From positions 1,984,001 to 2,048,000 of the forward strand of contig OZ237735.1 in the NCBI GenBank assembly GCA_965178125.1: 64,000 bases of DNA, written 5' to 3'. A program made the position numbers and the translations under genes. Source of the DNA: Bilabrum cf. latius (lineage: Eukaryota). Shown here in pieces: positions 1,099-64,000 of the stretch (position 1 is its first letter; every line of letters starts with the position of its first letter). The notes under the pieces were generated by a model. The model did no database searches, was not told the DNA's origin, and worked only from the letters and a program-made list of their open reading frames with translations.

Positions 1099-4000
1099 AT
1101 GTCGGAGAACCAGCATTATGGCGCGAGCATTGGCACAGCCATTGCAGGCGCAGCCGCTGGATTTGGCGTTGGAGCAGCTTGCGGGTACATGTTCAGGAGC
1201 GTGAGGCTTGTCCTGTCCGTTTCCCACTCTAAGCCATTCCATTGCCCGCAGCCCGACCGAATAAAAATGATTCGTTGCATGTCTCCCGAGGTTAATTCCA
1301 CTGAATACTTTTTGCGCGAATTAATCAAACCCTTTGGATAGTGTCGGTTCACACACAAGCGTTGATGGATCCCCATTCGCGTCTACGCAGTCTGGAGGCG
1401 AAATTGACAAGGGCATACCGTCGAGCATAGTAGAAACAAAGGGAGTTTCAGAGGCCGTTGCCCTCCGCAGGGCGGCCGAGCTGGACCTACTGTCGTCGGC
1501 GTATGAACTGCTGGCCCTGGCTACAAAAGAAAGCGGCTCCCTCTCTGCCCAAGTCTATGTCGTAGATCAGCCTACCGGACTCATTTTCCGTGGCTATGGT
1601 GTGACAGACAAGGGATATCCTCTGCTGTCGAGCAGGGAAGAAGACACGGAGCCGTTCAGCGTTGAGTGCGACGGCTCCAGCCTGGTCGGACACAGCGCGA
1701 CGATGGGCACAACAGTAGTGGCTGAATCATCCGATCGTCGCTCTGACGCTGATATGCCGAGCTCCAGGAGCCAAGCCAAGGCTGCTGGATCGGCGGACGC
1801 GGGCGAATCGATGGAACGCATCACGAAACCGCCTGGCGGCTACGTTGCTTGCGTACCTCTGACCGGCTACCACGAGAACGTCAGTTCCATCTAGGTGGCA
1901 TCCGCAAGCTACGGTGGCCCTGCATCTCCCAGCATGTCCGGTCTTGGAAGCAGGGCCGGCATCATCGCGATTCTCCGGGTGACGTTCGCGATGATGCCGA
2001 GCACGGAGCAGCTGCGAGCGTTGGAAGCAGTGGCAGCGGAAGCGGGGCCCCTGCTGTCCAAGCAAAGGGACGTGAAGGAGGCGGAGCAGGCACAGGCCCG
2101 GCTCGCCCTTGTGCTCCAGATGATGAGGAAAGTGGCCGCAGCCGCCAGCCACACCGCCGTGGTGGAGACGATCGTGCAGGCGGCCTACCAGCTCCTGGCG
2201 CCCCAAAGGGTCACGGTCTTCCAGGTGGACCACGCGCGCCGCAAGCTGATCATTTCTCGCTCCGAGGACGTGAATGGGGCTGAGATCTCCATGGACAGGG
2301 GCATCGCAGGCAGCGTCGCCACTACGGGCCAGGTTGCTCGGGTGCCCGACGCATACCAAGACTCTCGATTCAACAACAAGGTCGACCTGCAGAGCGGGTT
2401 TAGAACCAGGTCCGTCCTGTGCGTGCCTGTCCGGAACAACCGCGGCGTGGTCGTTGCCGTGATCCAGGTGATCAACAGGCGCGAGTTCGGAGGGTAGCTC
2501 GGGAGGGAGCTCGTGCCGGGCCTGTCGCGGGCGAAGCTTCAGAGTGATTATGAGGACGAGGACGAGGACGGGCTGCTGACCTTCACCCCCGTGCGCAAGG
2601 TGTCCCATACCGTAAACAGCATGATCGAGGAGGAGGAGGAAGACGAAGACGCGGGCGCGGATGACGAGGAGGAGGACGACGGCGACTCCGCGCACTCTGC
2701 GACGAGGCCCGACACGGCGAGGAGCGCGCGGGGCACCAGCGCGAGAGGCTTCGAACCGCCAGCGGCGAGGCGCTAGAATTCGGGCGACGCGGAAGGGGAG
2801 AAGGATTCTGTGGTTCCGCACGGGGGTTGGGCGTTCACGGCGGCAGACGAGGTCGTGATCCAGGCCCTGGCGTCCCAGGCGGGCATGGAGCTCGACAAGG
2901 CGGCGGCCATGGAGGAGATGCAGCGCGCGCAGGACGCCACCACGGCCATGCACGAGATCGTGCAGGCCACTGTGCTGGAGCCGAGCGTCCGTGGCTTCAT
3001 CCACCGCGTCATGGTGGCGACCTACCGCCTGCTCCGCTGCGAGAGGGTGACCTTGTTCCTGGTGGATGCTGCCAGGGAGGAGCTGGTGCTGGCCTACAGC
3101 AACGACGCCAAGGGCATCCGCATTCCGATGAGGAGCGGGCTGGCCGGGCACGCTGCCATGACGGGCAAGGTAGTCAATGTGGAGGACGCCTACCGCGACC
3201 AGCGCTTCGACCGATCGGTGGACAGAGCCACCGGTTTCAGGACGAGGTCGGTGCTCTGCATTCCCGTGCAGCTGCCAGCCACCGTCGCGACCGCCTCGGG
3301 CTCGGACACTCACGAGGACATCCAGGTGGGCGGGTTTTCATCTCGCGAGGGACTGCCCATCGCGGTGCTGCAGGCCATCAACAAGGACGACAGGCGGCCC
3401 TTCGACAAGCTGGACGAGGACGCCATGAGGGTCTTCTCCCTCCAAGTCGCCCTCGCGCTCAAGCGAAGGACGGTGGAGGCCGCTATGCTGACGATGCTGG
3501 CAGTCAAGCAGGACGAGCCATCGAGCCGGTTGACCGGCGAAGAGAAGGATGATGGCGAGGACTGCGGCGCTGCCTCAGGCGCAGGAGGCTCTTCTAAGGG
3601 AAAGAAGCAGAAGCGCGTGACCCTCAAGATAGACGTGGCCAAGGCCCAGGCGAGCCCTGGATCGTCCATGGGTGGAGCACCAACCCCCGTCGGTCTAAAG
3701 ACTCCGGCAGGTGGCACAGCGTCACCTGGGATGCTCATCTCCTAGATGGACCAGCACGAGCGCAAGACCGCGCTGAGTCTGCTGAGCATGTATTCGGACG
3801 AGCGACGCAAGCAGGAGCTGCATAGCTAGGCGATTTTCAGCGGCGTGATGGGCGCGGTGAAGGCCGCCCGTCTCATGAGGACGCCCTCGTGGACCAAATC
3901 GGTGGACCTGCAGGCCAAGGGCATGGACACTACCGACGAGCTGCTGCAGTGGGATTGGGACGTGTTTGAGGCGTACCAGCGTCCCGACGGAGAGAACGTG

Positions 4001-5398
4001 CTGAAGCAGTCGGTGGCGCGCATGTTCAGCCGCTTCAACGTCATGTCCATGTTCAAGGTGGACGAGACCAGGCTACGGAGGTTCGTAGACAGCATCCGAG
4101 ACACGTACCGCAACAACCCTTTTCACAACTGGCACCACGCCATCGCGGTGCTGCAAGCCAATTTCGTGATCTTATGCAGAACGCCCGCGCGCAACAGCCT
4201 CATGCACTCGGACGTGTTCGGCCTGCTCGTTGCGGCCCTGTGTCACGACGCGGACCACCCGGGACACACGAACGATTTCGAGTGCAACACTGGCGGTGAG
4301 CTCGCTATCACGTACAGTGACATCGCGCCGCTGGAGCATCACCACTCCGCTGTGACTGCGAGGATCCTGCGCCGCCCCGAGAGCAACATTATGTCGAGCC
4401 TTGAGCCCGAGGTGTTCCGCAGCACCAGGAAGCTCATGTGCCGGGCCATCCTCTCAACGGACATGTCGCAGCACTTCACCCAGGTGCAGCAGCTGGGCAA
4501 GCGAGCCGCAGACATGGCTCAGAAGTACGCTGCTGTGTCCTTGTCGGCGGAGGGGAGCCCTCGCGCCGATGCCTCCCCGAGTGCAGGGGTGGCGGCCTCG
4601 TCCGACGACGGCCCTCCAAAGCTGACAAAGAGGAGTTCTACCAGCGAGGTGAGCTCGCTTGCCGCTCCATCTCCAGCGAGGGCGACTTCGGATGGATCAG
4701 GCACCAGGTCACCGCGGTACGAGCAAGAGCACACTGTCACGCGGGGCCCCAAGAAACCTGACGCAGTCTCGTACACGATCCGCTCTCGCTCTGCCTCAAT
4801 GGCCAACGTGCTGGCTGCTGTGCCCGGCGCGATTAAGCAGAGCAAGAGCAGCCGGCATTCGGTACATATTCCGAAGCTAGACGCGTTTGACCGCACGAGC
4901 GAGGACGACAGGCTCGAGCTGGCCGGCATCGTGGTACACCTGGGTGACCTGTCCGGGCAGCTGTACCCCAAGCATCTCGCGGTGCGGTGGGGTAACATGG
5001 TGTCTCAGGAGTTCAGAGCTCAGGTGGAGAAGGAGCAGGAGCTTGGTCTCGCTTCGAGTCCCGTGATGCAGGGGCTGGAGTCGGAGGCTGGCGTGTACAA
5101 GAGCCAGTGTGGCTTCATCCAGTTTGTGCTCATGCCTTTGTGGCAGAATGCTTAGGAGCTTCTGCCAGGACTCAAGGACCCCGTCCAGCAGCTCAAGGCC
5201 AACCTAATGTTCTACCAAGCAGAGGTAAAGAGGCTGGAGGAGGCCGGTGCTGCCAGTCGCCCAGCGCAGTTCATCCCGGCGACGGCTCCGTACGATGTGG
5301 CAAGCCCTGCTGCACAGCTGCGGGAGAGGTCAAATGGATCTGCGTCCAGTGGGAAGTCGTCTGCCAGTGGCGCACGACGTGACGGTGATGATGATTGA
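1099..5398 (+). CDS. GAF-domain class I 3',5'-cyclic nucleotide phosphodiesterase; model join(1099..1200,1391..5398) with 6 in-frame TAG
   Basis: Same-frame ORFs joined across TAG at 1892, 2495, 2774, 3743, 3827 and 5153; TGA stop at 5396-5398. Two GAF domains (DAYQDSRFN..VDLQSGFRTRSVLCVP and DAYRDQRFD..VDRATGFRTRSVLCIP..INK..FDKLDE). Catalytic motifs FHNWHHA, CHDADHPG, LEHHH, ILSTDM, DLS and SQCGFI. Proposed intron 1201-1390 (GTGAGG...ACGCAG, phase 0) is less certain. Confidence 0.9.
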
Positions 5399-5686
5399 TT
5401 AGCCGTTTAAAACCGTTGTACAAGCTAGAGCCATGCCCTGTGCCGTTTGTGGCATCTGCTGTCCAACTTGAGCGTGCTTGCAGCTGCACGCAAATCCTTG
5501 GATGTGGCGACCACCTCTGCATCGAAGATGAAGATCATGCGATGCGGCCAGCGCAAAAACCGCGGGTTTATTTCCCATCCGCTGTCGTCGATTCCTCCCA
5601 TTATTTTTGCTATTCCTGCGAACCAATAGAACTGATTGTGTCTATCCAAGTGCTTGAGCGTCTCAGTTGCCGCGTGACCACTGGCA

Positions 5687-8600
5687 ATGAGGAGCTCCAC
5701 AGCGCTGGCGTGCGCGCTTGTCGCAGTCGCCCATGCGGTGGAGTTTACAGGGGTATTCTTCTCAAGGTTGCATGAACCGAGCACCAACGATTCTTCTGTT
5801 TCGGCAGGAACTGGTTATAGATGTTGGGCGTCTGGAGGTCCCGTGGAAATGAAGCTCGATTTGCTGCTGGACACTTCCTCTGGAGTGCTAGCAGTCAGCG
5901 GGGAGGATGGGACTCCCCTCCTCCCACCCGTGCAGGATTTCAAGGTTCGTGGGTGGCGGGGATTATATTCGACCACAAACTAGCCGTTCAATTTCTATGA
6001 GTGGAACCTGACGAGCGATATGCCGTTCGGTAAGAGCCCGTCCAAGATGGCTGCCTTCGAAGCAGCTCAGCCCACAGCCACTCTCCGGGATGCGATGCTA
6101 GCGGCTCAGGACAGCGAAATGGTTGGTCAATCGGATGGTATCACACGAACTGGCGCTGGCTGCTTCCAAATCATGTTCCCGATCGATTTATACGGCCACA
6201 AAATATACCGGCTTCGCGAGTTCGCCGCAGCTGGTCCTGCCGCCTTGAAGGCGTCCCCGGCCGGCGAAGGACTCGTCGAGGCTTCCTATTAGTGCGACGA
6301 CTCTGAAATTATCAACAGGGGGGCGCAGCATTCCCCCGACTGCGACAGCACTTTCGCATCCCAGCGCCCGGCCCAGGTGCAAAGCATGGGCACCCTGGTC
6401 GAGCAGCGGCTCGGGTGGCAGCCAGACCCCTGGCCCGTGTGCAGCCTGCCTTCGCCTGGGGCAGATCTTGCTGCGGTCGTTGCCATAGCGGCAGGTCAGC
6501 TGGGCGTGAACGAGACGCTCGCACAGGCGCTGGCTGACGAGGGCTGTCTGTCGACGAGAACCAGGACAGTGCGTTGCGCAGACTCCATCGGCCGCGACGT
6601 CGGAAATCTCACCGCTTGTTCCCTGGAGAACAGGGAGGCAGTGCTAGCCTTGGATGCCCTCCGCGGGACTGGCCCGATGCCCTTGCAGTAGCAGGCATGC
6701 GTGCCCCCAGCGGAGCAGTGCATCCGCAGGTGGCGGGTGCTGGCGGGGGCCACGGCGGGTGCCTCTGGGGAACAGCTGGCCGAAGGTGCCGACGCCACGG
6801 CGCTCCTGTCGTAGTCCACCACCGGTGCCACTTACTCGCAGAAGTAGGAAGCGGTTCCCGCGCCCGTTCGGACCCTTCGCGATGACCCGCTCGCGTCTGG
6901 TGTGGTGCTGCCGTGGGAGGTGCTGCCCGGCGGTGCGCCAGTTATGGCCGCCACTAACACCTCAGACGGCATGTTAATCCCTGCAGCGCATCACGAGTGG
7001 AAGGTGCTGATCGGCACAAGGAAGTACATGCTTTCTTCTAGCACGTCGGCTTGCCTGAACGATGAGTTCCTGCTTGCACCGGCGAGGGTGAGGTTCGAGG
7101 AACCCGCCGTCGGACTGGAGGCAGCGCCCAATGGAACCAGCGCGGGCGGTGGCGCAGCGGCGTATCAAGAGGAGCCAGATCACAACATCAGCATGCCGCT
7201 GGCCCCGCTCATGGACCTCGAGGTGCTCAACAAGGGAGCTACGTACAGGATGACCGGCTTGGAGCTGACCGCTGCGGACCCGCCCACGCACGGCTTCCGC
7301 CGAGCCATCACCGGATTCCAAATGGGAGTCGGGGAGCAAGCCGCTTCTGGAGCCAATGCCACGGGACATGGTCCTGCGCAGCCCGTCACCGTCATCAGCC
7401 TCGCAACAACCGCGCACTCAGGCCGAACGCACGCTGGCAACCCCGAGGAGGGTCCATCGTCGTTTGGCGTGCGCTGGGTACGGCGGTCCCAGCCGCTGCC
7501 AGGGTCGTCGGTCGCTTCCTCCGATGTGCTGAACCCCTCCGATGCGGGTGCTGCTGCTGCGGGAGTTGAGTCGCCACTGGATGCCCTGGATGGCGGGCAT
7601 CACTCGGCATGGCTGTCCTTCAGCGTGGAGGCCGATGGAGCCAAGGCGGCCCTGCAGAACCGCGGCGACGAGGAGCCCGTGTGCGATCCTTAGAATCTGC
7701 CGGGGGCGGAATACTCTACCTTCGTGGGAGTTGCCACGGCAGGACCCACCCGGCTGCTGTCGCAGTCTCAGCGGCAATGTGCCTTTGTCACGACCAACGA
7801 GGGCGTGCTTCGAAACCGCTGCCTGATGGTGACGCCGCCGGAGCGTTGCGTGAACGCTATTGATGAGGACGTCGCCGAGCTCTTCTGCCTTCCCGAGAAG
7901 CCCACCGGCGGCTCGGAGCTCGAGTGCGGCAACTGCACTGAGTGGGAGGTGCTCGACTGGTCCCAGTGCTCCGTCAACTGCGGGGGCGGGTCCCAGAGCA
8001 GGCCCGTGCGCTGCAGGGACCCTCGTTCAAACGAAACGCTCTCGGACGACGCCTGCCTGCTCACAGGCCAGGGCCCGCGACCGGCATCAACCAGGAGCTG
8101 CAACGTAATCCCGTGCATGCCCGACGGCTCCAATGCATACCCTGCTCCCACGGCGCTTGAATTCTTCCTGAACGGCACCTGGTCGGCATGCAGCGCACCT
8201 TGCAACGGCGTGGGGCAACGCACACGCAGCGTGTACTGCAGGGAACGGACGGGCGCCCGCCGCGGGCCCTTGCACGACGGCATCTGTGAGATGGTGGCGA
8301 ATCTGACCAAGCCCGCGACCCTCGAGGCTTGCGTCGGACCGGAGTGCGGCACGTTCGTCGCAGAGGCCTGGGGCGAGTGCAACGTGAATTGCGGCCCTGG
8401 AGCACAGACGAGGTCGGTTCTGTGCCGCGGCACGACCACCAACACGGCGCTGAACCCAACCGTGAGCTGTGCCGGCCAGACCATGCCGTAGACTTCTCGG
8501 CCGTGCCAGCGGTGCGACTGCATTCCAGACACGCCCAATGGCTTCCATATGGAGAGATGGCTTCCGCCCACGCAGCAGTATCTGCACGGTATTTCGGCCA

Positions 8601-9121
8601 CGCCGCACGCCGCTTCCATGCTGGGCACCAACACCGACGAACAGCTGGATGCGATGCACCTCGATCAGCTGAGGCTAGGCGACGGTGTGCCCGAGGCACT
8701 CGTCACACTTGCCATGGCTGATGCGGCCTGCCCTGCCACTGGCAGTGGCAGTGGCGGCATCGGGTGGCAGCTTCTCACGATCAGCGAGTGGAGCTGCCTG
8801 GAGCGGTCGGCTCAGCTGCGGCTCTGCGACGAGCTGCACCAGCTGGCGGGCGGTAAGCGTCTGCCAGTGGCCTTCCGAGCCCAAGGGGTCGAGCTTGACA
8901 GGCTGACCGCGCCAGCCTGGCTGCCGCAGAGCTTTAACGAGTCTGAAGCAGTGGGCGATGCGACGGCTCGGGAGCTGCAGCGTCCTGACGCCTTCAGGCG
9001 TAAGCTCCTCGGCGGGTGCCCCTTCACAGAGGCGGGCGTGTCCGGCCTTGAGGCAGGCCCATACGACGCATTCGTCAACCCGGCAAGGCAGGCTGCGCTC
9101 GCTGTTTGCCGTGCAGTGTGA
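5687..9121 (+). CDS. Secreted ~1,144 aa protein with thrombospondin type-1 (TSP1) repeats; 7 in-frame TAG
   Basis: Signal-peptide-like start MRSSTALACALVAVAHA. One frame through TAG at 5981, 6290, 6689, 6812, 6845, 7691 and 8489 to TGA. Three TSP1 units (WSQCSVNCGGGSQSRPVRC, WSACSAPCNGVGQRTRSVYC, WGECNVNCGPGAQTRSVLC) at about 7940-8510. Confidence 0.8.
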
Positions 9122-9289: not shown

Positions 9290-12049
9290 TCAGAAGTCAT
9301 CGAATGGGTTGGCCCCTCCACCAGCACCCCCGCCCTGCTGCCCGCTCTGGGCACGCCCTTGTCTGCCAATACCCGTGTACGAAGGTGGCGCCCCGCTCAC
9401 CCCGCCTCCCGTCCCATGAGCACCCCCTAGTGGGGGGAGCCCCCCGGCAGACATGACCCCGGGGGGTGCGCCGATCCCGGGGGGCGCACCCAGCGGCGGC
9501 AGGACACCGCCAGGCATGCTCTGGAAACTACCTGCGGGACCCGTGGGATACCCACCAACCGAATGGCCCATTCCAACGGGCACACCGCCAAAGCCAGGCA
9601 TCCCAGCAGATGCACGCCCCATCGGGGCCGGGGCTGGAGCCGGGGCCGGGGCCGGGGCTGACAGGACAGCAAACGGGTCATCATCGTCACCAGCAGTGGC
9701 CCCAACTGCTGCCGTACTCGACGCCAGCATGGGCGCGGCTGGGGCTGGGGCCGGAGCCGGAGCTGGGGCGGGTGCAGCCGTCGGCTCAGCAAACGGGTCA
9801 TCGTCATCGGTCTGCCCACCCCCAGCTGCATCGGCAGAGCCGCCTCCAAATTCAGCAAAGGGGTCGCTGTCCTCTCTGCTGGTGGCAGGCACGCTTGTCT
9901 GGCCAGCAGCGGCTGGGGCCTCGTCAGCGAACGGGTCATCGGATGCCTAGCGAGCCGGTGCAGAGGGTGCCACGGCGGCGCCATCGTCATCAGCAAACGG
10001 ATCTGATGACTCACGGGTTACTACCGCTGGGGCAGCCGCCCCACTCCCCCCATCTGCGTCTGCAAATGGATCGTCGTCGTCATGGTGAGCAGCAGCTGGC
10101 CTAACCGTGCCACTCCCAAAGCCAGGCTGCTGCTTGGATCCCGATACCGATCCTGGATTCGAATCCACAGCGAACGGATCTTCTGGATCGCCACCACCCA
10201 CAGTCGGGTCCGTGGCAGCCAGGCCCAGCCCGCCCGAAAGCGCCGATCCGCCACGGGACCGCCTGCTGCCAGCGCGAGACCTTGGTGGCTCGATCCCCAG
10301 GCCGAATCCAGCGACCGGTGCAGGTGCAGGGGCCGGTGCGGGCGAGGCAGCAAGCCTCTGCTTCCTGCTCGGGCCAGAGCTGGGTTCCAACGCGAACGGG
10401 TCCTCGTCCTCGTCGGCACCTGCAGCGGCAGCCTGCCCAGGCGGGGAGCTGTCCACACCGAGCCCATCAAAGTCGGCCGAGTCATCCAGCCCGTTGCTGA
10501 CGCCGTGATGCAGCCCAGAAGCCATGCCAGGTCCCTCTTTCTTGTCCGACTTCCGGGATGCAGCGCCCGGAGGCTGCTCCTTCTTGCGTCCAAAGTGGTG
10601 CGACTAGCCACCGGCCGTCAGCGCTGCCCCGAATAGATCCTCTTCGTTGTCATCGTCGTCACCACCCGCCCCCAATCCTGCACCTCTCCCGCTCCGCGCG
10701 TGCTTCAGCCCGCCGGACGTGCCGTGCCCCGGCTCTGACGCGCTCCTTGCAGCGGACGGGCCCTTCTTCCTCCCAGCCATGATGTCGTCGTGCAGCCTGA
10801 CCGCCGAGTTGATCTCGTCGTTCAGCATGATGAGCGCACCAACGCTGGAGGGGTCCACGGCCATGGCCGTCTGCACCTCCTCCATCACGCGATTCCCGGC
10901 TTGCCTCAGCTGCGCCACGAGGTCGACGACGACGTCGTTACTCCGCAGTGAGGCGGCATCTGGCGTCTCGTCGAGCATTTCCTTGGTCATCCTGGCCATG
11001 TTGGCCAGCTCCGCGTTCTCTCCGTGCAGTTCCCCAGAGAGAGCTGTGCTGGAGCTTCCCCGTCCCCTCGGCTGTGCCGGCCCGCGCCCTCCCGCGGATG
11101 CAGGGCTCCGACCACGTGCCGCACCACCTGCGGCTGGGCGTGTCGGGGAGGAGCGGGGCGGCGGGGTGAAGATCGGGGGCCTCGACGTGTCCCCTGGAGC
11201 GTATGGGAACTTGAAACCTGCGGAAATACGAGCTTAATCAAGCAACGTGAGGGGCAAATGAGAACCGAAAGAATGCGACTGGGTAGTCAAGTCAGGCGTA
11301 ACGCTCCTGCTCGGGGCTCGTTGTTCGCTTCGGGCAGATACCTGCTCCACGACTCACCCTTAGACCGCAGCAAACCGTACAGATTCACAAATGGTCGAAG
11401 GTTGTACTGGTCCTGGACCCCCACGAACTCTTCTCCCCATGCCTGCACCAATTCGAGAGCCTTCCGGTACGTCCGAATCTCGGCCTAGCCTCTCGTTTTC
11501 TCGTACTTCTCCACTATCGATCGGATGCGATCCAAGAACTTAGAGTCCTATGCAAGAGATCGCAAGAATCTTGTGCCACAGTTCTTGCAAAACGATTCAG
11601 TGAGTACGAGGCCTAGGTAGGAGTGGTTCGGATCGGAATCCTGGACCCGCTTGCGCGTCAGGCGCACAACCTCTTGCAACCTGCGGCAGAACAAAGCAGA
11701 TACAATTTATTTGCGGTATGTGGCCGGTGCTGCTGCATTGTTCTTGACCCAGCGTCGAAAACTGTCACGTTTTGATGTAGCATGTCTTACTGTTGCGGGG
11801 TCCGCAAGGCGTTTACTTTCTCCCACATGCGAGCAATAAGGGCCCAATTCTCAGCGCCATGATCGTCGTTAGTTGCTTCGACGATATCGGTATCCAATCC
11901 GTCTGCGAACTAGCACTCAGAACAGAGCGACACGTCATGCTTCGAGCAATGGCGAACAATCCTCCAGGTTGCGAGCATGATAGGCAGGCACAGAAAGATA
12001 GCTAACCGACTTCAACTCTTGCGGTCGTATCAAACCCAAATAGAGACAT
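9290..12049 (-). CDS. TOM1-like VHS-GAT endosomal adaptor with DPF/NPF-rich tail; model complement(join(9290..11217,11358..11680,11791..11902,12007..12049))
   Basis: Spliced translation gives a VHS domain (IVEATNDD..ENWALI..RKRVQDSDP..LTESFCKNCG..KALELVQAWGEEF..YGLLRSKGFKFP) followed by PPIFTPP. A GAT-like helical region follows (DVVVDLVAQL..ALIMLNDEINSAVRLHD). Three phase-compatible GT-AG introns. In-frame TAG at 11548, 11485, 10604 and 9947; TGA stop. Confidence 0.85.
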
Positions 12050-12184
12050 TTAGTCGCGCGTGCAAGGTAGTTGTCGGGGTTTCGCCGAGAATCGGGAGAA
12101 TGCAACACAGTGCAGTGCAATTGCGGAACCAAATGCGCGGCGCCAATCACAACACCCTTTCCCATTCCTTTCGCTATCGCTGGT

Positions 12185-52894: not shown

Positions 52895-52999
52895 TCAATG
52901 GGTAAGGTTTGGGGGGTTTGTTCTGAATTTGATGGATTCATCATCGGCATCCGGAGCTGTAATTCATCGTCGGACAAAAACAGACACTTTGTGCCTGTC
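52895..52999. promoter_or_regulatory. Putative bidirectional promoter region between the FAAL-ACP and SDR genes
   Basis: Only 105 bp of lower-GC DNA separates the two divergent ATGs. This is positional inference only. Confidence 0.4.
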
Positions 53000-54289: not shown

Positions 54290-57200
54290 GTTTGTCCACT
54301 TATCTCAATCATTCATCCGATTCCAACCCACAGGCCCATCCAAGCCCCAGACCCGCTCGTCAGCCGCGAGCGACCCCCGCCACCGCCTCCTCCAGCAGAG
54401 CCCTGGACGCCCCCAGCGACGTGCCTACATCCGGTGGCAGGTGCTCCACCACCGTGTGATAGTGCGACTGCAGGTCCGCCATGCTGGCCTCATCCCGGGG
54501 AGCCACGAAGGTGACCGCGGCGCCTTTGCGGCCGTGCCTGCCGGACCTCCCGATGCGGTGCAGGTAGTCCTCCCTGTTGCTCGGCACGTCGTAGTTGATC
54601 ACCAGCGACACCTGCTGCACGTCGATGCCCCTGCCGATGAGCCCGGACGCCACCAGCACCCGGGAGGCTCCCTGCCGGAACTCCCTCAGGCGGGCCTGTC
54701 GGTCCTTGGTGTCCATGGCGGCATGGATGCTGGACACGCCGAAGTCCATCGCCCGCAGCTGCTCCGTGACGTAGTCCACGGTGATCCTGCGGTTGCAGAA
54801 GATGACGGCCTTGGTGATGGCCACGCGCTCGTACAGGTCCGTGAGCGCGGCCAGCTTGGCCTCCTCGCCGTCCACACGCACCTAGAACTGCGCGATGCCG
54901 TCCAGCGTGAGCTCGTCTTGCTTGACGAGGATGACCAGCGGATCAGGCCGCATGATGGCTTGGGCCAGGTCCATGGCCTCGCTGGGCAGTGTGGCGGAGA
55001 ACATGCACACCTGGGCATCGCGGGGCACCCCGCACTTGACCAGCTCCTGCAGCTGCTCCTCGAAGCCGCCGCTCAGCATCTCGTCCGCCTCGTCGATGAC
55101 CACGATCCGCAGCCCAGACAGGTCCAGCGACCCGCGCTGGGCCAGCTGCCACAGGCGTCCGGGCGTGCCCACGGCCACGTCCACGCCTCGGTGCAGGGCC
55201 GCCTCATCCTCCCGCACAGACGTGCCGCCCACGAAGGTCCGCACGCTCACGTCCATGCGCTCGCCCAGCGCCTGCAGCACGCCTTGTGTCTGGTCGGCCA
55301 GCTCGCGCACGGGGTTGAGCACGAGTGCCTGGGGCGCGCGGGACCTGCTCGAGCCAGGATCGTCCGCTCTCGCGTCCGCGATGCGCTGCAGCAGGCCGAT
55401 GCCGAAGGCGCCCGTCTTGCCCGTGCCGGACTGCGCCTGGCCCAGCACGTCCCTGCCCTTCGCCACGGGCACGATGGCCCTGGCCTGGATGGCCGTGGGC
55501 TCCACGAAGCCGTACGCGAAGACACCGCGCAGGAGGTCTGCGTGCAGGCCCATATGCTTGAAGTGATCCACGGGCGCGGGCAATGGCGCAGACGTAGATG
55601 CAGACGCGGACGCACGCGCGGCACCGGGCGGCGCATCGGCTGCAGCGTCTGTGGCGGGCTCGCGGTGGTGCGAATCAGGCCCCGTGGCGGCATCATCGGC
55701 GGTGTCGGGCTCGATGCTGCCCGTGGTGCTGCAATCGTCAGCCGTGATGCCCCTGATGCTGGCGCCGTCATCGCTGCATGTGCTGGCGGCCCCGTCCGCG
55801 GCGGTGTGACGGACCGTGCCTGCTGCTGTACGAGCATCATGTGTCGGTGAGGTGTGCACGGCGGCGGGCAGTCTGGGCGGCTTGCATGTGGGCGTGGCTG
55901 CTGCTGTGCCTGTGAGATGGGAGGAGCGGGGATCGGAGGGGATGGCCGCAGGAGATGTGGGAAGAGTGTCCTCCGAGTGTCTCATCAGTATATTCATGCA
56001 TGGCAGTGGCTGAGTGGCGCATCGAGTGTGCATGCCAGCTCCAGCGGTGTGGAAGAACGGCCGGTCCGCGGTCAGCTGGAAGCGCCGTTCTGCACACAAC
56101 TCCAGTCAATGCCGAGAGCCCCGCACAAGAAGACGAGAGGCCAAGCTGGATTCTCCCGAGCTTGACCCACTCATGCATGCACATACATTGCCATGATGCT
56201 CATGGAAGCTGCTTCTACTGGCTCCCAGTACAGCGCTCACCTATGCCTGACTTGCTCCCGCCGCGATGGGAACTGCCCCCCGCAGCTCCCCCGATCTGGA
56301 AGGGCTTCCTCCTGCTCCTGCCCTTTGTTCCAGCGGTTCCCCTGATACGCCTCTCCTCCTCTATCGACTCCTAGTGTGTGTGCTTGGTTGCTGTACTCCT
56401 CATGGTGCTTGTATGTATCATCGTGAGAAGTGAGGTGTCGGGGGATGGTGTGTTCCTGGGTGGCAATGTGCAGTTCCGGCTTCGGGGTCTTGCCCGGATG
56501 TCGGTCAATCGGCCAGCAGCGGTGGAGCGGGTGACACCTATGGATGAAGCGCAAGAGTGCAAGCGTTGGATGGCATGCAGGTCACACTCTGGCTGCCACG
56601 ATGGGATGGCATCAGCGATGGCAGCCATTGATATGCAGCTACAGCCCGTGGCATAGAGGTCCGGCTGGTGACACGGTCACGCTGCCTAGCCAGCTGGCTC
56701 GATGGCGATTGATGGAAGCGCAGTACAATCCAATGGATCTGGATGGAATACTCAATACTATCTTCCTTCTTCTGTCCACTTATCTCAATCATTCATCCGA
56801 TTCCAACCCACAGGCCCATCGAGCCCAGTGCCCCGTTCGTCAGCCGCGAGCGACCCCCGCCGCCGCCTCCTCCAGCAGAGCCCTGGACGCCCCCAGCGAC
56901 GTGCCTACATCCGGTGGCAGGTGCTCCACCACCGTGTGGTAGTGCGACTGCAGGTCCTCGATGCTGGCCTCATCCCGGGGAGCCACGAAGGTGACCGCGG
57001 CGCCTTTGCGGCCGTGCCTGCCGGACCTCCCGATGCGGTGCAGGTAGTCCTCCCTGTTGCTCGGCACGTCGTAGTTGATCACCAGCGACACCTGCTGCAC
57101 GTCGATGCCCCTGCCGATGAGCCCGGACGCCACCAGCACCCGGGAGGCTCCCTGCCGGAACTCCCTCAGGCGGGCCTGTCGGTCCTTGGTGTCCATGGCG

Positions 57201-58990
57201 GCATGGATGCTGGACACGCCGAAGTCCATCGCCCGCAGCTGCTCCGTGACGTAGTCCACGGTGATCCTGCGGTTGCAGAAGATGACGGCCTTGGTGATGG
57301 CCACGCGCTCGTACAGGTCCGTGAGCGCGGCCAGCTTGGCCTCCTCGCCGTCCACACGCACCTAGAACTGCGCGATGCCGTCCAGCGTGAGCTCGTCTTG
57401 CTTGACGAGGATGACCAGCGGATCAGGCCGCATGATGGCTTGGGCCAGGTCCATGGCCTCGCTGGGCAGTGTGGCGGAGAACATGCACACCTGGGCATCG
57501 CGGGGCACCCCGCACTTGAACAGCTCCTGCAGCTGCTCCTCGAAGCCGCCGCTCAGCATCTCGTCCGCCTCGTCGATGACCACGATCCGCAGCCCAGACA
57601 GGTCCAGCGACCCGCGCTGCGCCAGCTGCCACAGGCGTCCGGGCGTGCCCACGGCCACGTCCACGCCTCGGTGCAGGGCCGCCTCATCCTCCCGCACAGA
57701 CGTGCCACCCACGAAGGTCCGCACGCTCACGTCCATGCGCTCGCCCAGCGCCTGCAGCACGCCTTGCGTCTGGTCGGCCAGCTCGCGCACGGGGTTGAGC
57801 ACGAGTGCCTGGGGCGCGCGGGACCTGCTCGAGCCAGGATCGTCCGCTCTCGCGTCCGCGATGCGCTGCAGCAGGCCGATGCCGAAGGCGCCCGTCTTGC
57901 CCGTGCCGGACTGCGCCTGGCCCAGCACGTCCCTGCCCTTCGCCACGGGCACGATGGCCCTGGCCTGGATGGCCGTGGGCTCTACGAAGCCGTACGCGAA
58001 GACACCGCGCAGGAGGTCTGCGTGCAGGCCCATGTGCTTGAAGTGATCCACAGGCGCGGGCAATGGCGCAGACGTAGATGCAGACGCGGACGCACGCGCG
58101 GCACCGGGCGGCGCATCGGCTGCAGCATCTGTGCCGGGCTCGCGGTGGTGCGAATCAGGCCCCGTGGCGGCATCATCGGCGGTGTCAGGCTCAATGCTGC
58201 CCGTGGTGCTGCAGTCGTCAGCCGTGATGCCCCCGATGCTGGCGCCGTCATCGCTGCATGTGCTGGCAGCCCCGTCCGCAGCGGTGTGACGGACCGTGCC
58301 TGCTGCTGTACGAGCATCATGTGTCGGTGAGGTGTGCACGGCGGCGGGCAGTCTGGGCGGCTTGCATGTGGGCGTGGCTGCTGCTGTGCCTGCGAGATGG
58401 GAGGAGCGGGGATCGGAGGAGCGGGGATGGTCGCAGGAGATGTGGGAAGAGTGTCCCCCGAGTGTCTCATCAGTATATTCATGCATGGCAGTGGCTGAGT
58501 GGCGCATCGAGTGTGCATGCCAGCTCCAGCGGTGTGGAAGAACGGCCGGTCCGCGGTCAGCTGGAAGCGCCGTTCTGCACAACTGCAGTCCAATGCCGAG
58601 AGCCCCGCACAAGGAGACGAGAGGCCAAGCTGGATTCTCCCGAGCTTGACCCACTCATGCATGCACATACATTGCCATGATGCTCATGGAAGCTGCTTCT
58701 ACTGGCTCCCAGTACAGCGCTCACCTATGCCTGACTTGCTCCCGCCGCGATGGGAGCTGCCCCCCGCAGCTCCCCCGATCTGGAAGGGCTTCCTCCTGCC
58801 CTTTGTTCCAGCGGTTCCCCTGATACGCCTCTCCTCCTCTATCGACTCCTAGTGTGTGTGCTTGGTTGCTGTACTCCTCATGGTGCTTGTATGTATCATC
58901 GTGAGAAGTGAGGTGTCGGGGGATGGTGTGTTCCTGCCAGTGGATGGCAATGTGCAGTTCCGGCTTAGGGGTCTTGCCCGGATGTCGGTC
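54290..58990. repeat. Direct tandem duplication, period ~2,480 bp (54290-56505 vs 56770-58990)
   Basis: Near-identical sequence covering the 3' flank (TGTCCACTTATCTCAATCATTCATCCGATTCCAACCCACAGG), the CDS and the intron. Confidence 0.93.
54360..56421 (-). CDS. Divergent eIF4A-like DEAD-box helicase, copy 1; probable intron 55910-56240, start uncertain
   Basis: Q motif [50 protein letters not shown] and the eIF4A linker ELTLDGI. An in-frame TAG at 54882 joins the two RecA domains; TGA stop. Confidence 0.85.
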
Positions 58991-59463: not shown

Positions 59464-62400
59464 TCAAGCGACGGTCGCCGACAGCTGGGTTCCATCTCCC
59501 AGCACACCAGTCGCGGAGGTGAAGGAAGAGATGCCCTTCGCATTCACGGCAGCCACACGCACATAGTACGTCTGCCCAATCGGCAGATCGCTGATGAGCT
59601 CAGCGAATGGCTCGCCTGCGAGCACCTCCGTCTCGCCGATGCTGACCGAGTACACGGCTCCATCGAAGCTAGACGTCGTCGAGTACTCGATCCTGTACCC
59701 CGTGATCGGCGATCCTCCGTCCGCCTCATTACCCCGACCCATAAGGGCAGGGCACAGGGACGGAGTGTTCGGGTCCGCGGTGCCACCGCCGCCACAGAAG
59801 ATGCCGTGGGCCGGCACCCGAGGGAAGCCCCACTGCACCTCAATGCAGCTGAAACCCGCGCCACTCGTGCACGTGCCACCTGACACCGATGCCACGGAAG
59901 CAGAAGAAGGCTTGCCCGGCACCTGGACGGCCGGGGTCCTCTTGAGCGTGTTGCTCGGCGCGCCAAGGCCAGCCCTGTTCTTGGCGCGCACGCGGACGTA
60001 GTACTGCCTTCCCGGAGTCAGGAGCGGGATCGTGTAGCTCATGGCTTCCGACACAGCCACCTCAGCACTGCCCTTGTTGGGCGACGGCTCGAACGAGTCA
60101 AAGCCGCGCTGCACGTCCCACTCCACCACAAACGATGACACGACATCGCCACCGTTGTTAAGTGGCAGGTCATATCCGATTGTGATCTTCGAGTCGTTGG
60201 CACGACCGGAAGTCACCCCGATCACCACGTTGCTGGGAGCGCTCGGCGCTTCCCTGGGGTACTCGCTGGCGGGCGTCGAGGCCTGCCTCTCACCTAGGCC
60301 GATCGCGTTGCCAGCGCGCACAAACACAAAGTACGACACCCCCTTGTCCAGGTTGGTCAGCCTGAACTAGTAGGGCGAGCCAGTGCTCAGCGAGGTGAAC
60401 ACGTGCTCCACGGGTGCCGCAGTTGCGGAACCTCGCCGAGTCTCGATCACGTACCGGTCAACCTCCCGCCCGCCATCGTCGGAAGGTGGTGACCAGACCA
60501 CGCGAAGCGCGGCTCCCGATACAGCCGTCAGAGACACCTGCCTGGGGAGACCCGGCACGGTCGCGGGACGAACAGGGGTGGCGGCATTCGTAATCGCGGC
60601 AGGGCCGAAGCCCTTGGCGCTGTTGTAGGCAAACACGCGCACATGGTACGGCGTGCCCTGGGTGAGCCCGCCCACGATTTGCGGCACACCAGCGCACCCA
60701 CCGTTGAACACTTCGCCATCCTGTTCCGTGCGCACGATAGGATCGACCATGTCACCAGCTGTCGTGTTCACGTTATCGGTCGCAATGGCCATACCAAAGT
60801 CACCGTCGTCGTTGAAGGTGATTCGCCACACGAAGTTGTTGGCGGCAGCCCCACCGGTCCCGCCAGGCACGCGCTCGACGGTCACACTTGTCACACCATC
60901 CAGCTCCTCCAGTGCAGCCTCCATCGAGCCACCGGTCAACGATGCATCTTCAGACCAGACTCCTTCACCACCATTGGCGATCAAAGTCTCCTCCGAGGCC
61001 GGGCCCACAGCCACAGCGTAGATCGCTTGCGTTGTGCGAGTCTCTCCGGACGGCAGAGTCACGCGCAGCTGGAATGTGCTGTTGTGATCGATCACATCCG
61101 AGGCAGTGGGCGGTGCCACTTCAACCGTCTGCACCTCTCGGCGAGGGAAGTTGGGGCAGCGCACGTCCTGATGAAGCACGTTCGCAAAATCGGCCGTCTC
61201 GCTGACCTCGATCCTGTACTGCACAACGTCGTCACCACCGTCAAACAGAGGTGCGTTGAATGTCACGTTCAAAGCGTCGCCACGGCCGTCTGTCGCCCGC
61301 ACAAAGAGGTCACGGGGCGCGGAAGGCGCCCTGAGAGCCAGTTCAAGGGGCGACCCGGTAGCCACAGCTGGCTCGGAGCCTCCATGCAGAGCACCGACCG
61401 AGCTCACGCGCACTGCGTACTGCTGACCGGCGGTCAGGCCAATGATGCGGTAGGCGAACGTGGCGTGGTCGACCTCCGCGAAGCCGTAGCCTGCGGGTCG
61501 CTGCCCCACCGCGCAACCTCCGCTAGGATGGCCAGTTCCATCGCTTGCTACTGGATCGGGACCGCAGACCAGAGTGCCCTGATCGCTAGCATCCACCTCG
61601 TAGTCGCCTCCAATGTACACCACGGAAGCAGTCGCCGCGGGGTACAGGGGGGACGAATCCACGAGAAGGTCAGGCAGGCCAGTACCAGACACGTCCTGCT
61701 CGGACGCCGACGGCACCTCATTCACGCCGAAGGTGACCCGCCACACGTACTCGCCGGTGGTGGAGCCGTTTCCAATGTCACGAGATACGTCGACGTTGCC
61801 GCTGGTGGTCACAAGCTGCTCCACCGCACGGGCAACATCCTCTTCCGTAGCGTTGTAGGCTACCAGCGTCGAAGCGCCGGAGCCACGGAACCTCAGTCGG
61901 AAGTGGCCTCGCACCACATCCCCAGCAGCCCTACCGGCAGCCGTCAGCTCCGTCCGGATTACGCCAACTTCCCGCACGCCATTTGCGGTACGCCCCTGCG
62001 TGAGCGTGGTGACCTGGCCCTGTGTAGAGCCAGTCAGCAGCGCTTCATCGATCAGAAGCTCCGGCTGGTTGCCCGGAGTCACGGTCTGATCGGCGAAAGT
62101 GATCTGCCACCTGTACCCGCGCACCGGGCCGGACGCTGGCACGGGCTAGCGAGCGACCTCGACGTGGCCGACGACCGCGTCCGCGTTACCGGTGCCGTTG
62201 CCCATGCTCATGAGGGCAAAGCGCAGTTGCTCCGGGGACACATCGAACGGCAAGAGCTGCGTGCGCTCGCCCTTGAACTCCAGGGCGAACGAGCCGGCGG
62301 CGCTGCCAGCGGTTGCGTGCTCGACCTGCACCTGCTGCACCTCCACGACGTGTTCATTCGACTCGAACCACTCCACCCTGTATTTCTAGATGGAATCGCC

Positions 62401-64000
62401 CGAGGTGGCTGCTGGCTGCCTCCACGCCACATCGATGTGTGTCAACGGTGCATGCTCGGCCTCCTCGGCTGTCATGGTGTCCGTAGGGCACCCGAGCAGC
62501 TCAGTCGCGTCGGTTTCCACCACCACAGCGGTCACCTGGGTTGGCGATTCAGGGGCGTTCGAAGGGATGGTCGGCGCTGGCTGGGCCACGGCGCTGAAAT
62601 TGCCCTGCCCGACGCCCTCACCAGCCACAGCTGCGATGCGGAAGTAGATCGGGCGGCCGGGCTCCAGACCGGATACGTCGTGGTAGAAGGTACGGTCCTC
62701 ATCCAGATCGCCATCGGGTGCCTCAGGGTCACCAATGAAGGGGATGGGAGTCAACGTGGCGTTGTTGGCACCCGAACCGGCCTGCGTCACCAGCGTGATC
62801 GTGTCTGTCGGCTCGCCATCCGCACCCGAAGCGAACGTAGTCGACAGGTCGTACTCAATCACGTAGGCGATGATGTCCCTGCCACCAGACCTCCTAGGTG
62901 CCCTCCACGTGACACGCACTTCGTCGCCGTACAGCACCTGCGCGGCCGGGTCCTAGGGAGTGGTCGGCTTGATGAAAGCAGGTGCCAGGCTGGAGGGCAT
63001 GCTGTACTCGTACTGCCTGTTCGACGTGGGCATGCCAGTGTGGGACACCATCTGGAACGGAACGGAGTTGCGGGCAAATACGCGAGCGAAGTAGCGAGTA
63101 CCGGTCGTCAGACCATCGATTACGAACGTGTACGGCGCCGCTCCGGCGAGGGCAGCCCCAGTCACAACCGCGGAACCAAGTGGCGTTCCGTCACCGCATG
63201 TGACCGCAGTCGTATTGGAACCGCTCGCAAACGTAGAAGCGGTGTCCCACTGCACGCAATACGATGTGATCGGGTCGCCACCGTCGCTGATAGGAGGCGA
63301 GAAGAACAGTTCTAGCTCCGTTCCAGAGAATATCTCGAGACGCACGTCTGTCGGCTTACCAGGAACTGATCGAGGCGTGGCTGGGAACACCACCGGCACA
63401 TCCGCCGACGGGGTCGTACCAATGGCATTCCTTGCCGACACGCGCACGTAGTACGCCTGGCCAGCGGTGAGGCCAGGGATGATCACGCACCTGTCGCACG
63501 AACGTTGCTGCACAGTGATCCGCGCGGTGCTGGCAGGGGTCAGCTAGTGCGAGTGGATGCGGATCGGCCGCGGCGGCCCGGACTTTCCGATGATGTCCAC
63601 GACGAACACGCGGCGTCGGTCCTGTGGGTCGGAAGCGCCAGTGTCAACAGTCACGGTTGCGGCCGAGACAGATGGCAGCGCCTCCAGAGCATCGCGAACC
63701 TCCTCAGCAGTCGCGTTCCAGGCGAGCGGCCTAGATACCGTGGCATCCGCTACTGCCTGCAGGCTCGCGGGCAAGTTGTCCAGAGACTCAGCCGGCACGT
63801 CGTCGATTGCGCCGGTGCCGCCAGTGCCACCGTATGCCAGCTCGAAGCCACCGCCCAGCGATGCGTTCACGTCCACGCCCTCAGGCACCTCAACCGTGAC
63901 GATCTGCCTGCCCAGCAGATAGTCGGCGTTGCTGTAGACAAGGGAGCCGTACGAAGACGTGCTGAAGCTCGAGGCAGTGTCCCACTCGACCAGGTACGAA
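59464..64000 (-). CDS. 3' part of a giant fibronectin type III repeat protein (5'-partial); 5 in-frame TAG in window
   Basis: Repeated FN3 units (P..P..V..L.V.W.PP.DGG..I..Y..EW..GL..G..YYVRV.A.N) interleaved with EVQ-starting modules. Six same-frame ORFs are joined at TAG 63544, 62953, 62386, 62146 and 60367; TGA at 59464. Confidence 0.9.

What the first reader, a model, noticed from the sequence alone, without database searches (positions are those of the whole stretch)
1099..64000. Non-standard nuclear genetic code: TAG is a sense codon throughout the window
Seen in the sequence: about 110 in-frame TAGs (hand count) in ~15 genes on both strands. After each one the same frame continues and the domain resumes without a gap. 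Examples are p28 DELIR*IALLNPERGLLLLRVRDE (20651), FAAL RTGDLGFMRRG*LFITGR (50783), SDR ETARNLYL*GLHVVLACR (53075), VHS KNCGTRFLRSLA*DSKF (11548) and eIF4A GIAQF*VRVD (54882, 57362). I found no frameshifts in these genes, and two >10-kb frames are interrupted only by TAG. Most TAGs are shared between duplicated copies, which argues against sequencing error or decay. Inference: the codon is fully reassigned rather than occasionally read through. The high GC content and gene set do not look like a ciliate, so this may be an unreported lineage for such a code; I cannot check the literature.
Basis: partly seen in the sequence, partly recalled or inferred. Interest (0 to 1): 0.97.

Follow-up and report, generated by a model that had tools for sequence, protein, structure and literature searches.

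The report
TAG codes for glutamine here
This GC-rich protist genome reads the stop codon TAG as the amino acid glutamine and keeps TGA and TAA as stops, a rare change of the nuclear genetic code that seems not to have been reported for this kind of organism.

Summary
In 16 stop-to-stop frames (19,161 codons, 13 with a Pfam match) there are 119 in-frame TAG and no internal TAA or TGA. 14 frames end in TGA, one in TAA, and one runs off the window. Two more TAGs lie in a VHS exon.

Gene-sized, spliced contigs from two other public runs match the window letter for letter across 40 and 22 of these TAGs. So the TAGs are neither spliced out, nor edited, nor assembly errors.

A syntenic contig from a relative (about 70% nucleotide identity) also has in-frame TAGs and ends genes in TGA or TAA. 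In 22 well-aligned pairs of TAG against a sense codon, the partner is Gln 10 times and Glu never. Two closer relatives have Gln at 3 of 4 aligned FAAL TAG sites. Gln is favoured over the next candidates by about 14 natural-log units.

The code equals NCBI table 15 (UAG=Gln; UAA and UGA stop). The organism is probably a stramenopile, on weak single-gene evidence. Eight literature searches found no such code reported for stramenopiles. The tRNA and release-factor mechanism could not be tested.

The parts
3..947 (+). 3' part of an eIF4A-III-type DEAD-box helicase gene. It has no TAG and ends in TAA.
   Evidence: Pfam DEAD and Helicase_C. The stop codon is TAA. The best named homologs are ochrophyte stramenopiles at 75-77% identity.
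1325..5398 (+). GAF-GAF cyclic-nucleotide phosphodiesterase gene with 6 in-frame TAG (1892, 2495, 2774, 3743, 3827, 5153). It ends in TGA.
   Evidence: Pfam PDEase_I 9e-64 and GAF 5e-28. The PDB alignment continues across the TAG at 5153. The X5 contig covers 2046-5418 with 0 differences.
5678..9121 (+). Thrombospondin type-1 repeat protein gene with 7 in-frame TAG. It ends in TGA.
   Evidence: Pfam TSP1_ADAMTS 6e-27. X5 and X6 contigs cover 5599-9219 and 5586-9216 with 0 differences and 0 gaps.
9290..11902 (-). VHS-GAT gene with canonical GT..AG introns (about 11218-11357, 11681-11790, and 11903-12006 upstream). TAGs lie at 9947 and 10604 (GAT exon) and at 11485 and 11548 (VHS exon).
   Evidence: Pfam GAT and VHS. 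Spliced joints appear in X5 and X6 contigs but not in X1. Intron ends were read.
11981..14452 (+). Ser/Gly/Lys-rich frame without a Pfam family. It has 9 TAG, of which 4 lie before the first ATG.
   Evidence: The X5 contig covers 12178-13836.
14486..18175 (+). VPS9-domain protein gene with 13 TAG, including three consecutive TAG at 16370-16378. It ends in TGA.
   Evidence: Pfam VPS9 2.5e-20. The X5 contig covers 14613-18634 with 0 differences.
18789..19655 (-). Main exon of a nucleoside phosphorylase (PNP_UDP_1) gene with no TAG. Two GT..AG introns lie upstream (19624-19717 and 19794-19884).
   Evidence: Pfam PNP_UDP_1. Joints are and intron ends.
20255..22045 (+). Axonemal inner-arm dynein light chain p28 gene with a long C-terminal extension. 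It has 9 TAG and ends in TGA.
   Evidence: Pfam Ax_dynein_light 1e-27. For the TAG at 20651, the aligned column in 119 homologs is Q 106, E 12, P 1. The ortholog in L001 has CAG there.
22205..25717 (-). Lineage-specific protein gene with no Pfam family. It has 5 TAG and ends in TGA.
   Evidence: The ortholog in L001 (4159-8196, minus strand) has 15 TAG.
25949..37084 (-). Giant (3711-codon) Ala/Glu/Lys-rich protein gene with a weak PAN-like module near its C-terminus. It has 25 TAG and ends in TGA.
   Evidence: PAN_1 and PAN_4 score below or near their cut-offs.
37337..38695 (-). YdjC-like gene with 4 TAG. It ends in TGA.
   Evidence: Pfam YdjC 9e-22..
39204..49643 (+). Inverted paralog of the giant gene (3479 codons) with 23 TAG. 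15 TAG positions are shared with the other copy.
49703..52894 (-). Fatty-acyl-AMP ligase-like adenylation enzyme with a C-terminal carrier-like part. It has 7 TAG and ends in TGA.
   Evidence: Pfam AMP-binding 9e-45. PDB FAAL hits. The relatives P0121 and P0136 have Q at 3 of 4 aligned TAG sites.
52871..54256 (+). Short-chain dehydrogenase gene with 2 TAG. It ends in TGA.
   Evidence: Pfam adh_short..
54360..56105 (-). Divergent eIF4A-like DEAD-box gene, copy a, with 1 TAG at 54882.
   Evidence: Pfam DEAD and Helicase_C. The TAG aligns with a conserved Tyr of eIF4A in the 3 PDB alignments shown.
56840..58654 (-). Tandem copy b of the eIF4A-like gene, with 1 TAG at 57362 at the same position as in copy a.
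59464..63999 (-). Fibronectin type III repeat protein gene, open at its 5' end. It has 5 TAG and ends in TGA.
   Evidence: Pfam fn3 1.7e-58..

Best explanation
The window is nuclear DNA of an intron-poor, 62% GC flagellate protist in which UAG has been fully reassigned from stop to glutamine. UGA is the main terminator and UAA a minor one. This is the code listed as NCBI table 15.

Shown here:
- TAG is a frequent in-frame codon of expressed, conserved genes.
- It is kept in spliced transcript-like contigs.
- It is absent from gene ends.
- It is interchangeable with CAG and CAA between related species.

Inferred from what is established for other UAG=Gln lineages, and not tested here: decoding is by a tRNA-Gln with a CUA anticodon (one base away from the normal CUG), together with an eRF1 that no longer recognises UAG.
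For: 1. Frames. 119 in-frame TAG against 0 internal TAA or TGA in 19,161 codons. 14 frames end in TGA and 1 in TAA. Chance probability is about 1e-119.

2. Domains run across TAGs: p28, FAAL, PDE, DEAD-box and VHS.

3. RNA. X5 and X6 contigs are gene-sized. They carry 4 and 5 joints respectively that remove 91-140-nt GT..AG introns absent from the 31-kb X1 contig. Their depth differs gene by gene (X5: 15 to 156), while X1 is flat at 13.3. They match the window with 0 other letters and 0 gaps over 40 of 48 (X5) and 22 of 48 (X6) in-frame TAGs of the laid stretch.

4. Relatives. L001 is syntenic with window 18.8-27.5 kb at about 70% nucleotide identity. It has 3, 15, 3 and 1 in-frame TAG in four frames, which end in TGA (2) or TAA (2).

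5. Residue.
- Of 22 TAG-versus-sense ortholog pairs with at least 8 of 20 identical neighbours, the partner is Q 10, K 4, R 2, A 2, S 2, P 1, H 1, E 0. The 10 Q partners comprise 8 CAG and 2 CAA; CAA differs from TAG at two bases. With no context filter there are 30 pairs: Q 10, S 4, A 4, K 4, R 3, H 2, G 1, P 1, Y 1.
- The FAAL fragments P0121 (95% identical) and P0136 (69% identical) give Q at 3 of 4 aligned TAG sites and S at 1.
- The p28 column is Q 106, E 12, P 1 of 119.
- Combined BLOSUM62 log-likelihood over 35 pairs puts Q best, K at -14.0 and E at -14.4 natural-log units.

6. TAA is not sense. There are 0 in-frame TAA, against 135 CAA and 357 GAA in the same frames.
Against: - The FAAL motif column at the TAG of 50783 is E 99, Q 16 and smaller counts in 150 representatives. 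It is E in all 3 PDB alignments shown.
- The TAG of both eIF4A-like copies aligns with a conserved Tyr in the 3 PDB alignments shown.
- Between the giant paralogs, unshared TAGs pair with E 6, Q 4, K 2 and T, A, R, D once each. Taken alone this favours Glu by 1.4 natural-log units.
- Read laying labels X5 'RNA? (probably DNA)' and X6 'RNA?' as guesses. That they are RNA is my inference from the splice joints and the gene-sized pieces.
- Contigs drop rare variants, so partial editing cannot be excluded.
- No tRNA gene lies in the window or in L001. No genome is held. The decoding machinery is therefore unseen.
- There is no peptide evidence.
Confidence: 0.86

Rival explanations
1. TAG is a sense codon but codes for glutamate, as UAG does in the ciliate PL0344 and UAR does in Blastocrithidia and peritrichs.
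For: The FAAL column is E 99 against Q 16. The giant paralogs give E 6 against Q 4. TAG often lies inside acidic runs of the giant proteins.
Against: 0 of 30 ortholog pairs with L001 are Glu, while 10 are Gln, including two CAA. Close FAAL relatives have Q at 3 of 4 aligned TAG sites. The p28 column is Q 106 against E 12. The combined likelihood is 14.4 natural-log units worse than for Gln. E and Q exchange readily, which explains the paralog pairs and the FAAL column.
Confidence: 0.06
2. TAG is ambiguous. It is read as Gln inside genes but also terminates some genes depending on context, as in Condylostoma, karyorelicts, or UAA in Blastocrithidia.
For: It cannot be excluded from 15 gene ends in the window and 4 in L001. 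Frames were defined by reading TAG through, so a terminal TAG would be hidden.
Against: After the last TAG of p28, orf22205, FAAL, the PDE and the giant genes, conservation with orthologs, paralogs or PDB chains continues up to the TGA. All 15 window frames and all 4 L001 frames end in TGA or TAA.
Confidence: 0.05
3. The TAGs are not translated. They would be assembly or sequencing errors, decaying pseudogenes, tiny introns, or sites edited in the mRNA.
For: None was found. There is only the general caution that the RNA nature of X5 and X6 is inferred, and that contigs hide minority variants.
Against: Runs of three other studies hold the searched stretch. Two of them, X5 and X6, when laid on a different stretch, match it with 0 differences across 40 and 22 TAGs in spliced, gene-sized contigs. 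Pseudogenes would also accumulate TGA and TAA, and there are 0 in 19,146 codons. TAGs are conserved between paralogs, and in-frame TAGs also occur in a relative about 30% diverged.
Confidence: 0.01

Closest known systems
UAG=Gln with UAA kept as stop (NCBI table 15): the fornicate Iotanema spirale, the ciliate Protocruzia tuzeti and some phyllopharyngean ciliates
   Same: The codon table is the same: UAG is read as Gln, and UAA and UGA terminate. These cases are listed in passages of PMC11687900. For PMC5304391 I saw only the search listing and the start of the abstract.
   Different: This lineage is not a ciliate or a metamonad by its gene content and its best eIF4A-III hits, which are ochrophyte stramenopiles. 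The genome is 62% GC. The tRNA(CUA) and eRF1 changes that go with the reassignment in known UAG=Gln lineages (recalled, not read here) could not be examined.
UAR=Gln codes (NCBI table 6): many ciliates, ulvophycean green algae, Hexamita, Streblomastix, Amoeboaphelidium
   Same: A stop codon is captured by glutamine, one base away from CAG.
   Different: TAA is not a sense codon here. There are 0 in-frame TAA in 19,161 codons, and TAA ends 1 of 15 window frames and 2 of 4 L001 frames.
Other UAG-only reassignments: rhizarian exLh (Leu), Scotinosphaera (Ser), ciliate PL0344 (UAG=Glu with UAA=Lys)
   Same: The meanings of UAG and UAA are uncoupled (passages of PMC11687900).
   Different: The residue differs. 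In the 30 unfiltered ortholog pairs Leu and Glu are the partner 0 times and Ser 4 times, against Gln 10 times.
Code 15 in crAss-like and Lak phages
   Same: TAG=Gln.
   Different: Those are phage genomes that recode late genes. Here the genes are eukaryotic nuclear genes with spliceosomal introns. For the phage papers I saw only search listings.

Membership tests
NCBI table 15-type nuclear code (UAG=Gln; UAA and UGA stop) | UAG occurs in frame inside conserved, expressed genes | tested here: met
   119 in-frame TAG in 15 frames plus 2 in the VHS exon. Domain alignments cross them. 40 and 22 of them are kept in spliced contigs of two other runs.
NCBI table 15-type nuclear code (UAG=Gln; UAA and UGA stop) | UAG is decoded as glutamine | tested here: met
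   By comparison only. Gln is the partner in 10 of 22 ortholog pairs and at 3 of 4 sites in close FAAL relatives. The p28 column is Q 106 of 119. Gln is favoured by 14 natural-log units. There is no peptide evidence.
NCBI table 15-type nuclear code (UAG=Gln; UAA and UGA stop) | UAA and UGA remain terminators | tested here: met
   0 internal TAA or TGA in 19,161 codons. Gene ends are TGA 14 and TAA 1 in the window, and TGA 2 and TAA 2 in L001.
NCBI table 15-type nuclear code (UAG=Gln; UAA and UGA stop) | A cognate tRNA-Gln with a CUA anticodon | not testable with these tools
   No tRNA gene lies in the window or in L001. No whole genome is held.
NCBI table 15-type nuclear code (UAG=Gln; UAA and UGA stop) | An eRF1 with altered stop-codon recognition | not testable with these tools
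   eRF1 is not encoded in the window, and there is no genome to search.
UAR=Gln code (NCBI table 6) | UAA is also a sense codon | tested here: not met
   0 in-frame TAA against 135 CAA in the same frames. TAA is used as a terminator.
Ambiguous stop/sense codes (Condylostoma and karyorelict type) | The same codon also terminates genes near the 3' end of the mRNA | tested here: inconclusive
   None of 15 window or 4 L001 gene ends needs TAG, and conservation continues after the last TAG in 6 genes. The sample is small, and the frames were defined by reading TAG through.

The most novel reading that the evidence does not exclude
A clade of GC-rich, probably stramenopile flagellates independently reassigned UAG to glutamine while keeping UAA as a stop. 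The clade holds at least the window's organism, relatives about 95-98% identical in protein, and a species about 30% diverged in DNA. This would be the first nuclear code change known in stramenopiles. It arose in a high-GC genome, where loss of the UAG stop through AT pressure cannot be the explanation. TAG sites turn over fast: only 2 of 32 aligned TAG sites are shared between the two species. That makes the clade a natural system for studying how a newly captured codon spreads.
Probability: 0.5. Interest if true: 0.8.

Novelty: new member of a known kind. Interest (0 to 1): 0.72.

Why it matters
Nuclear genetic-code changes are known from only a handful of eukaryotic lineages. Cases where UAG and UAA have different meanings are rarer still (passages of PMC11687900).

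A new, apparently cultured lineage would add an independent origin for comparing tRNA and eRF1 changes. It already has genome and transcript-like data in public runs, and a diverged relative shares the code. It would also test whether base-composition pressure is needed for stop-codon capture, since this genome is 62% GC.

There is a practical side too. Standard gene callers cut this organism's proteins at every TAG. The database holds its p28 and FAAL only as fragments of 67 to 353 residues. Any annotation or phylogenomic use of these assemblies needs table 15.

Tried and rejected
- No whole genome is held for the window, so no genome-wide tRNA, eRF1, rRNA or Codetta-type analysis was possible.
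- The window has no tRNA and no Rfam match. L001 has no tRNA.
- The protein-atlas search on the eIF4A-III fragment gave only generic helicase clusters and no taxonomic lead.
- The search for homologous proteins on the PDE catalytic region returned only 4 hits and no useful column or name.
- The two top eIF4A rows (Teladorsagia, Adineta) score high from double matches to the query. For the Teladorsagia protein this is an internal duplication. They are not close relatives.
- Two p28 TAG columns (residues 179 and 192 of the frame) align differently under HMMER and MAFFT, so I did not use them.
- TAG=Tyr was considered because of the DEAD-box column. It was rejected because only 1 of 30 ortholog pairs and 0 of 16 paralog pairs have Tyr.
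- TAG=Leu, as in the rhizarian exLh, was rejected: 0 Leu partners.
- The look-up of sequencing runs listed no holder on record as RNA. X7 gave only short low-complexity pieces on the laid stretch.
- The single-gene eIF4A-III tree places the query on a long branch among unnamed sequences, next to dictyochophyte and pelagophyte sequences, with support of only 0.54. That is too weak to name a class.
- Literature searches and look-ups in PMC6733595 and PMC13768787 found no report of a UAG sense codon in a stramenopile.
Species and code tables in the supplements of code surveys could name this organism, and I did not see them.
Full report
**What the window is**

The window is 62% GC throughout. Read with the standard stops it breaks into many medium-sized frames. 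With TAG read through, it resolves into a tidy set of long frames on both strands. Thirteen of the 16 main frames carry Pfam domains of ordinary eukaryotic genes:
- an eIF4A-III-type helicase
- a GAF-GAF phosphodiesterase
- a thrombospondin-repeat protein
- a VHS-GAT protein
- a VPS9 protein
- the axonemal dynein light chain p28
- a YdjC-like protein
- a fatty-acyl-AMP-ligase-like enzyme
- a short-chain dehydrogenase
- two tandem eIF4A-like helicases
- a fibronectin-III repeat protein
- a nucleoside phosphorylase (an extra frame with no TAG, not among the 16)
- a giant protein with a weak PAN-like module. Its inverted paralog gave no Pfam hit when scanned whole.

**Checking the observation**

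In the 16 stop-to-stop frames (19,161 codons) I count 119 in-frame TAG, 0 internal TAA and 0 internal TGA. Fourteen frames end in TGA, one in TAA, and one runs off the window. Two further TAGs lie in the VHS exon. Seven of the 119 lie before the first in-frame ATG and may be leader sequence.

Averaged over the six frames, TGA makes up 1.21% of codons, TAA 0.20% and TAG 0.55%. A 3711-codon frame without TGA or TAA has a chance probability near 1e-23. The whole set has a probability near 1e-119. In-frame TAG, at 0.62%, is not depleted at all.

Alignments to solved structures run straight across TAGs. Fifteen TAG positions are shared by the two giant paralogs. The VPS9 gene has three TAGs in a row at 16370-16378.

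**Are the TAGs present in RNA?**

Eleven public runs from six studies hold the FAAL-SDR stretch or part of it. Their names are coded. I laid four runs on window 2046-22045.

X1 covers the whole stretch in one 31-kb contig at a flat depth of 13.3. It is probably the source DNA.

X5 and X6 come from two other studies and behave differently.
- Their contigs start and stop at gene borders: 5599-9219 for the TSP1 gene at 5678-9121, 14613-18634 for VPS9, and 20252 onward for p28.
- Their depth differs from gene to gene (X5: 15 to 156).
- They carry joints that skip 91-140 bases. Once the tool's stated +2 ambiguity is applied, these begin GT and end AG on the gene's strand in all five cases. X1 lacks these joints.

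I therefore read X5 and X6 as transcript assemblies. The tool itself only guesses: it labels X5 'RNA? (probably DNA)' and X6 'RNA?'.

Their listed pieces match the window with 0 other letters and 0 gaps. They cover 40 of 48 (X5) and 22 of 48 (X6) in-frame TAGs of the laid stretch. So the TAGs are not spliced out and are not edited in the bulk of the molecules. They are also reproduced in independent data sets. Contigs cannot exclude low-level editing.

**Which amino acid?**

Single conserved columns disagree with each other.

| Site | Aligned residues in homologs |
|---|---|
| p28, TAG at 20651 | Q 106, E 12, P 1 of 119 |
| FAAL motif, TAG at 50783 | E 99, Q 16, smaller counts, in 150 representatives |
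| eIF4A-like, both copies | conserved Tyr in the 3 PDB alignments shown |

CAG, GAG and TAY are all one mutation from TAG. Deep columns therefore mostly report the codon a TAG arose from.

Close relatives are more telling. The protein database holds the organism's p28 only as fragments cut at TAGs, plus fragments 85-86% identical from a relative. One of these led to L001, a 9984-base metagenome contig. L001 is syntenic with window 18.8-27.5 kb at about 70% nucleotide identity. It has in-frame TAGs in four frames (3, 15, 3 and 1), and these frames end in TGA twice and TAA twice.

I aligned three ortholog pairs codon by codon, dropping positions where the partner is a gap or also TAG. That leaves 30 TAG-versus-sense pairs: Q 10, S 4, A 4, K 4, R 3, H 2, G 1, P 1, Y 1, and no E. 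Requiring at least 8 of 20 identical neighbours leaves 22 pairs: Q 10, K 4, R 2, A 2, S 2, P 1, H 1. The ten Gln partners go in both directions. They include two CAA, which differ from TAG at two bases, so this is synonymy rather than mere mutational adjacency.

The FAAL fragment P0121 (95% identical) has Q at both TAG sites it covers. P0136 (69% identical) has Q at one site. Together they give Q at 3 of 4 aligned sites and S at 1.

The giant paralogs alone lean slightly the other way: E 6, Q 4, K 2 and four singletons, which is 1.4 natural-log units in favour of Glu. Those proteins are extremely Glu-rich, and Q and E exchange readily.

A BLOSUM62 conditional likelihood over the 35 filtered pairs puts Gln first, with Lys at -14.0 and Glu at -14.4 natural-log units.

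TAA is not a sense codon. It never occurs in frame, although CAA (135) and GAA (357) do, and it terminates genes.

The code is therefore UAG=Gln with UAA and UGA as stops, which is NCBI table 15. TAG would make up about 13% of Gln codons (119 TAG against 658 CAG and 135 CAA).

**Mechanism**

What is shown:
- UAG is translated, or at least not used for termination, in expressed genes.
- It is evolutionarily synonymous with CAG and CAA.

What is inferred from other UAG=Gln lineages:
- A tRNA-Gln whose anticodon changed from CUG to CUA does the decoding.
- An eRF1 has lost UAG recognition.

Neither could be examined. There is no tRNA in the window or in L001, and no genome is held.

I see no sign that TAG also terminates genes. 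All 19 gene ends use TGA or TAA, and conservation continues beyond the last TAG in p28, orf22205, FAAL, the PDE and the giant genes. Nineteen ends is a small sample, though.

**Who is it?**

The genes have few, short, canonical introns. An axonemal dynein gene implies a flagellate stage.

For the eIF4A-III fragment, the named rows among the best 120 database hits are as follows, apart from generic JGI function labels and uninformative identifiers. Two are double-match artefacts. The other eleven are MMETSP, NCBI or UniRef entries. Nine name ochrophyte stramenopiles: Nannochloropsis, Florenciella (twice), Heterosigma, Dictyocha, a pelagophyte, Pylaiella, Scytosiphon and Paraphysomonas. Two are cut off: one begins 'Pseudo', which I take to be a pedinellid from memory, and one begins 'non d'. 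All eleven are 75-77% identical to the query.

A quick tree puts the query on a long branch among unnamed environmental sequences, next to the dictyochophyte and pelagophyte sequences, with support of only 0.54. The p28 hits give no taxonomic signal.

I therefore call it 'probably a stramenopile, perhaps near ochrophytes'. That is a lead, not a result.

**Comparison with what is known**

Passages of PMC11687900 list the known cases where UAG and UAA differ in meaning:
- an uncultured rhizarian (Leu)
- Iotanema spirale (Gln)
- Scotinosphaera (Ser)
- Protocruzia tuzeti and phyllopharyngean ciliates (Gln or Leu)
- a ciliate with UAA=Lys and UAG=Glu.

The same passages list the UAR=Gln lineages. 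No stramenopile appears in either list.

Eight full-text searches with varied wording found no report of a sense UAG in a stramenopile or a GC-rich protist (plus the look-ups). Supplements are closed. Papers outside the held library, or still unpublished, may exist. The holding runs of five of the six studies are dated 2025.

**Verdict**

The residue is glutamine, and TAA remains a stop. The code table itself is already known, so this is a new member of a known kind: a further and probably independent origin, in a lineage and a base composition where it was not expected. The amino-acid assignment is comparative, not proteomic, and the decoding machinery is untested.

Noticed in passing
window 25949-37084 (-) and 39204-49643 (+), with 37337-38695 between them: The two giant genes form a head-to-head inverted duplication around the YdjC-like gene. 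The first ~2,140 aligned codons are nearly identical (85 synonymous and 113 non-synonymous differences). The C-terminal ~1,190 codons are strongly diverged (268 synonymous, 632 non-synonymous). This suggests gene conversion or a recent partial duplication.
   Followed up: partly
window versus L001 orthologs (p28, orf22205, giant C-terminus): TAG positions turn over fast. Only 2 aligned sites are TAG in both species, against 30 where one species has TAG and the other a sense codon. The L001 ortholog of orf22205 has 15 TAG where the window gene has 5.
   Followed up: partly
window 54360-56105 (-) and 56840-58654 (-): These are tandem duplicates of a divergent eIF4A-like helicase with an N-terminal extension of about 180-200 residues. 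With TAG=Gln, both carry Gln where eIF4A proteins have a conserved Tyr (the 'QFY' motif).
   Followed up: no
window 16370-16378: Three consecutive TAG codons lie in the VPS9 gene. They are kept in the X5 contig. Read as Gln, they make a short poly-Q.
   Followed up: no
window 12718-13384: Summed contig depth is very high in X5 (643) and X6 (1490) over the Ser/Gly/Lys-rich frame. Many short low-complexity pieces and odd joints map here and at 2550-2680 and 9620-9660. This probably reflects repeats shared with many other transcripts rather than expression.
   Followed up: no
window 58499-61087 (+), 62090-64000 (+) and other long frames opposite real genes: Long open frames with many TAGs but no Pfam match lie antisense to the FN3 gene and other genes. 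They are the usual by-product of high GC and should not be counted as TAG-containing genes.
   Followed up: partly
protein database entries P0002, P0121, P0272: Public gene calls for this organism and its close relatives are fragments that begin or end at TAG codons, for example 67 and 353 residues. Existing annotations of these assemblies are therefore systematically truncated.
   Followed up: partly
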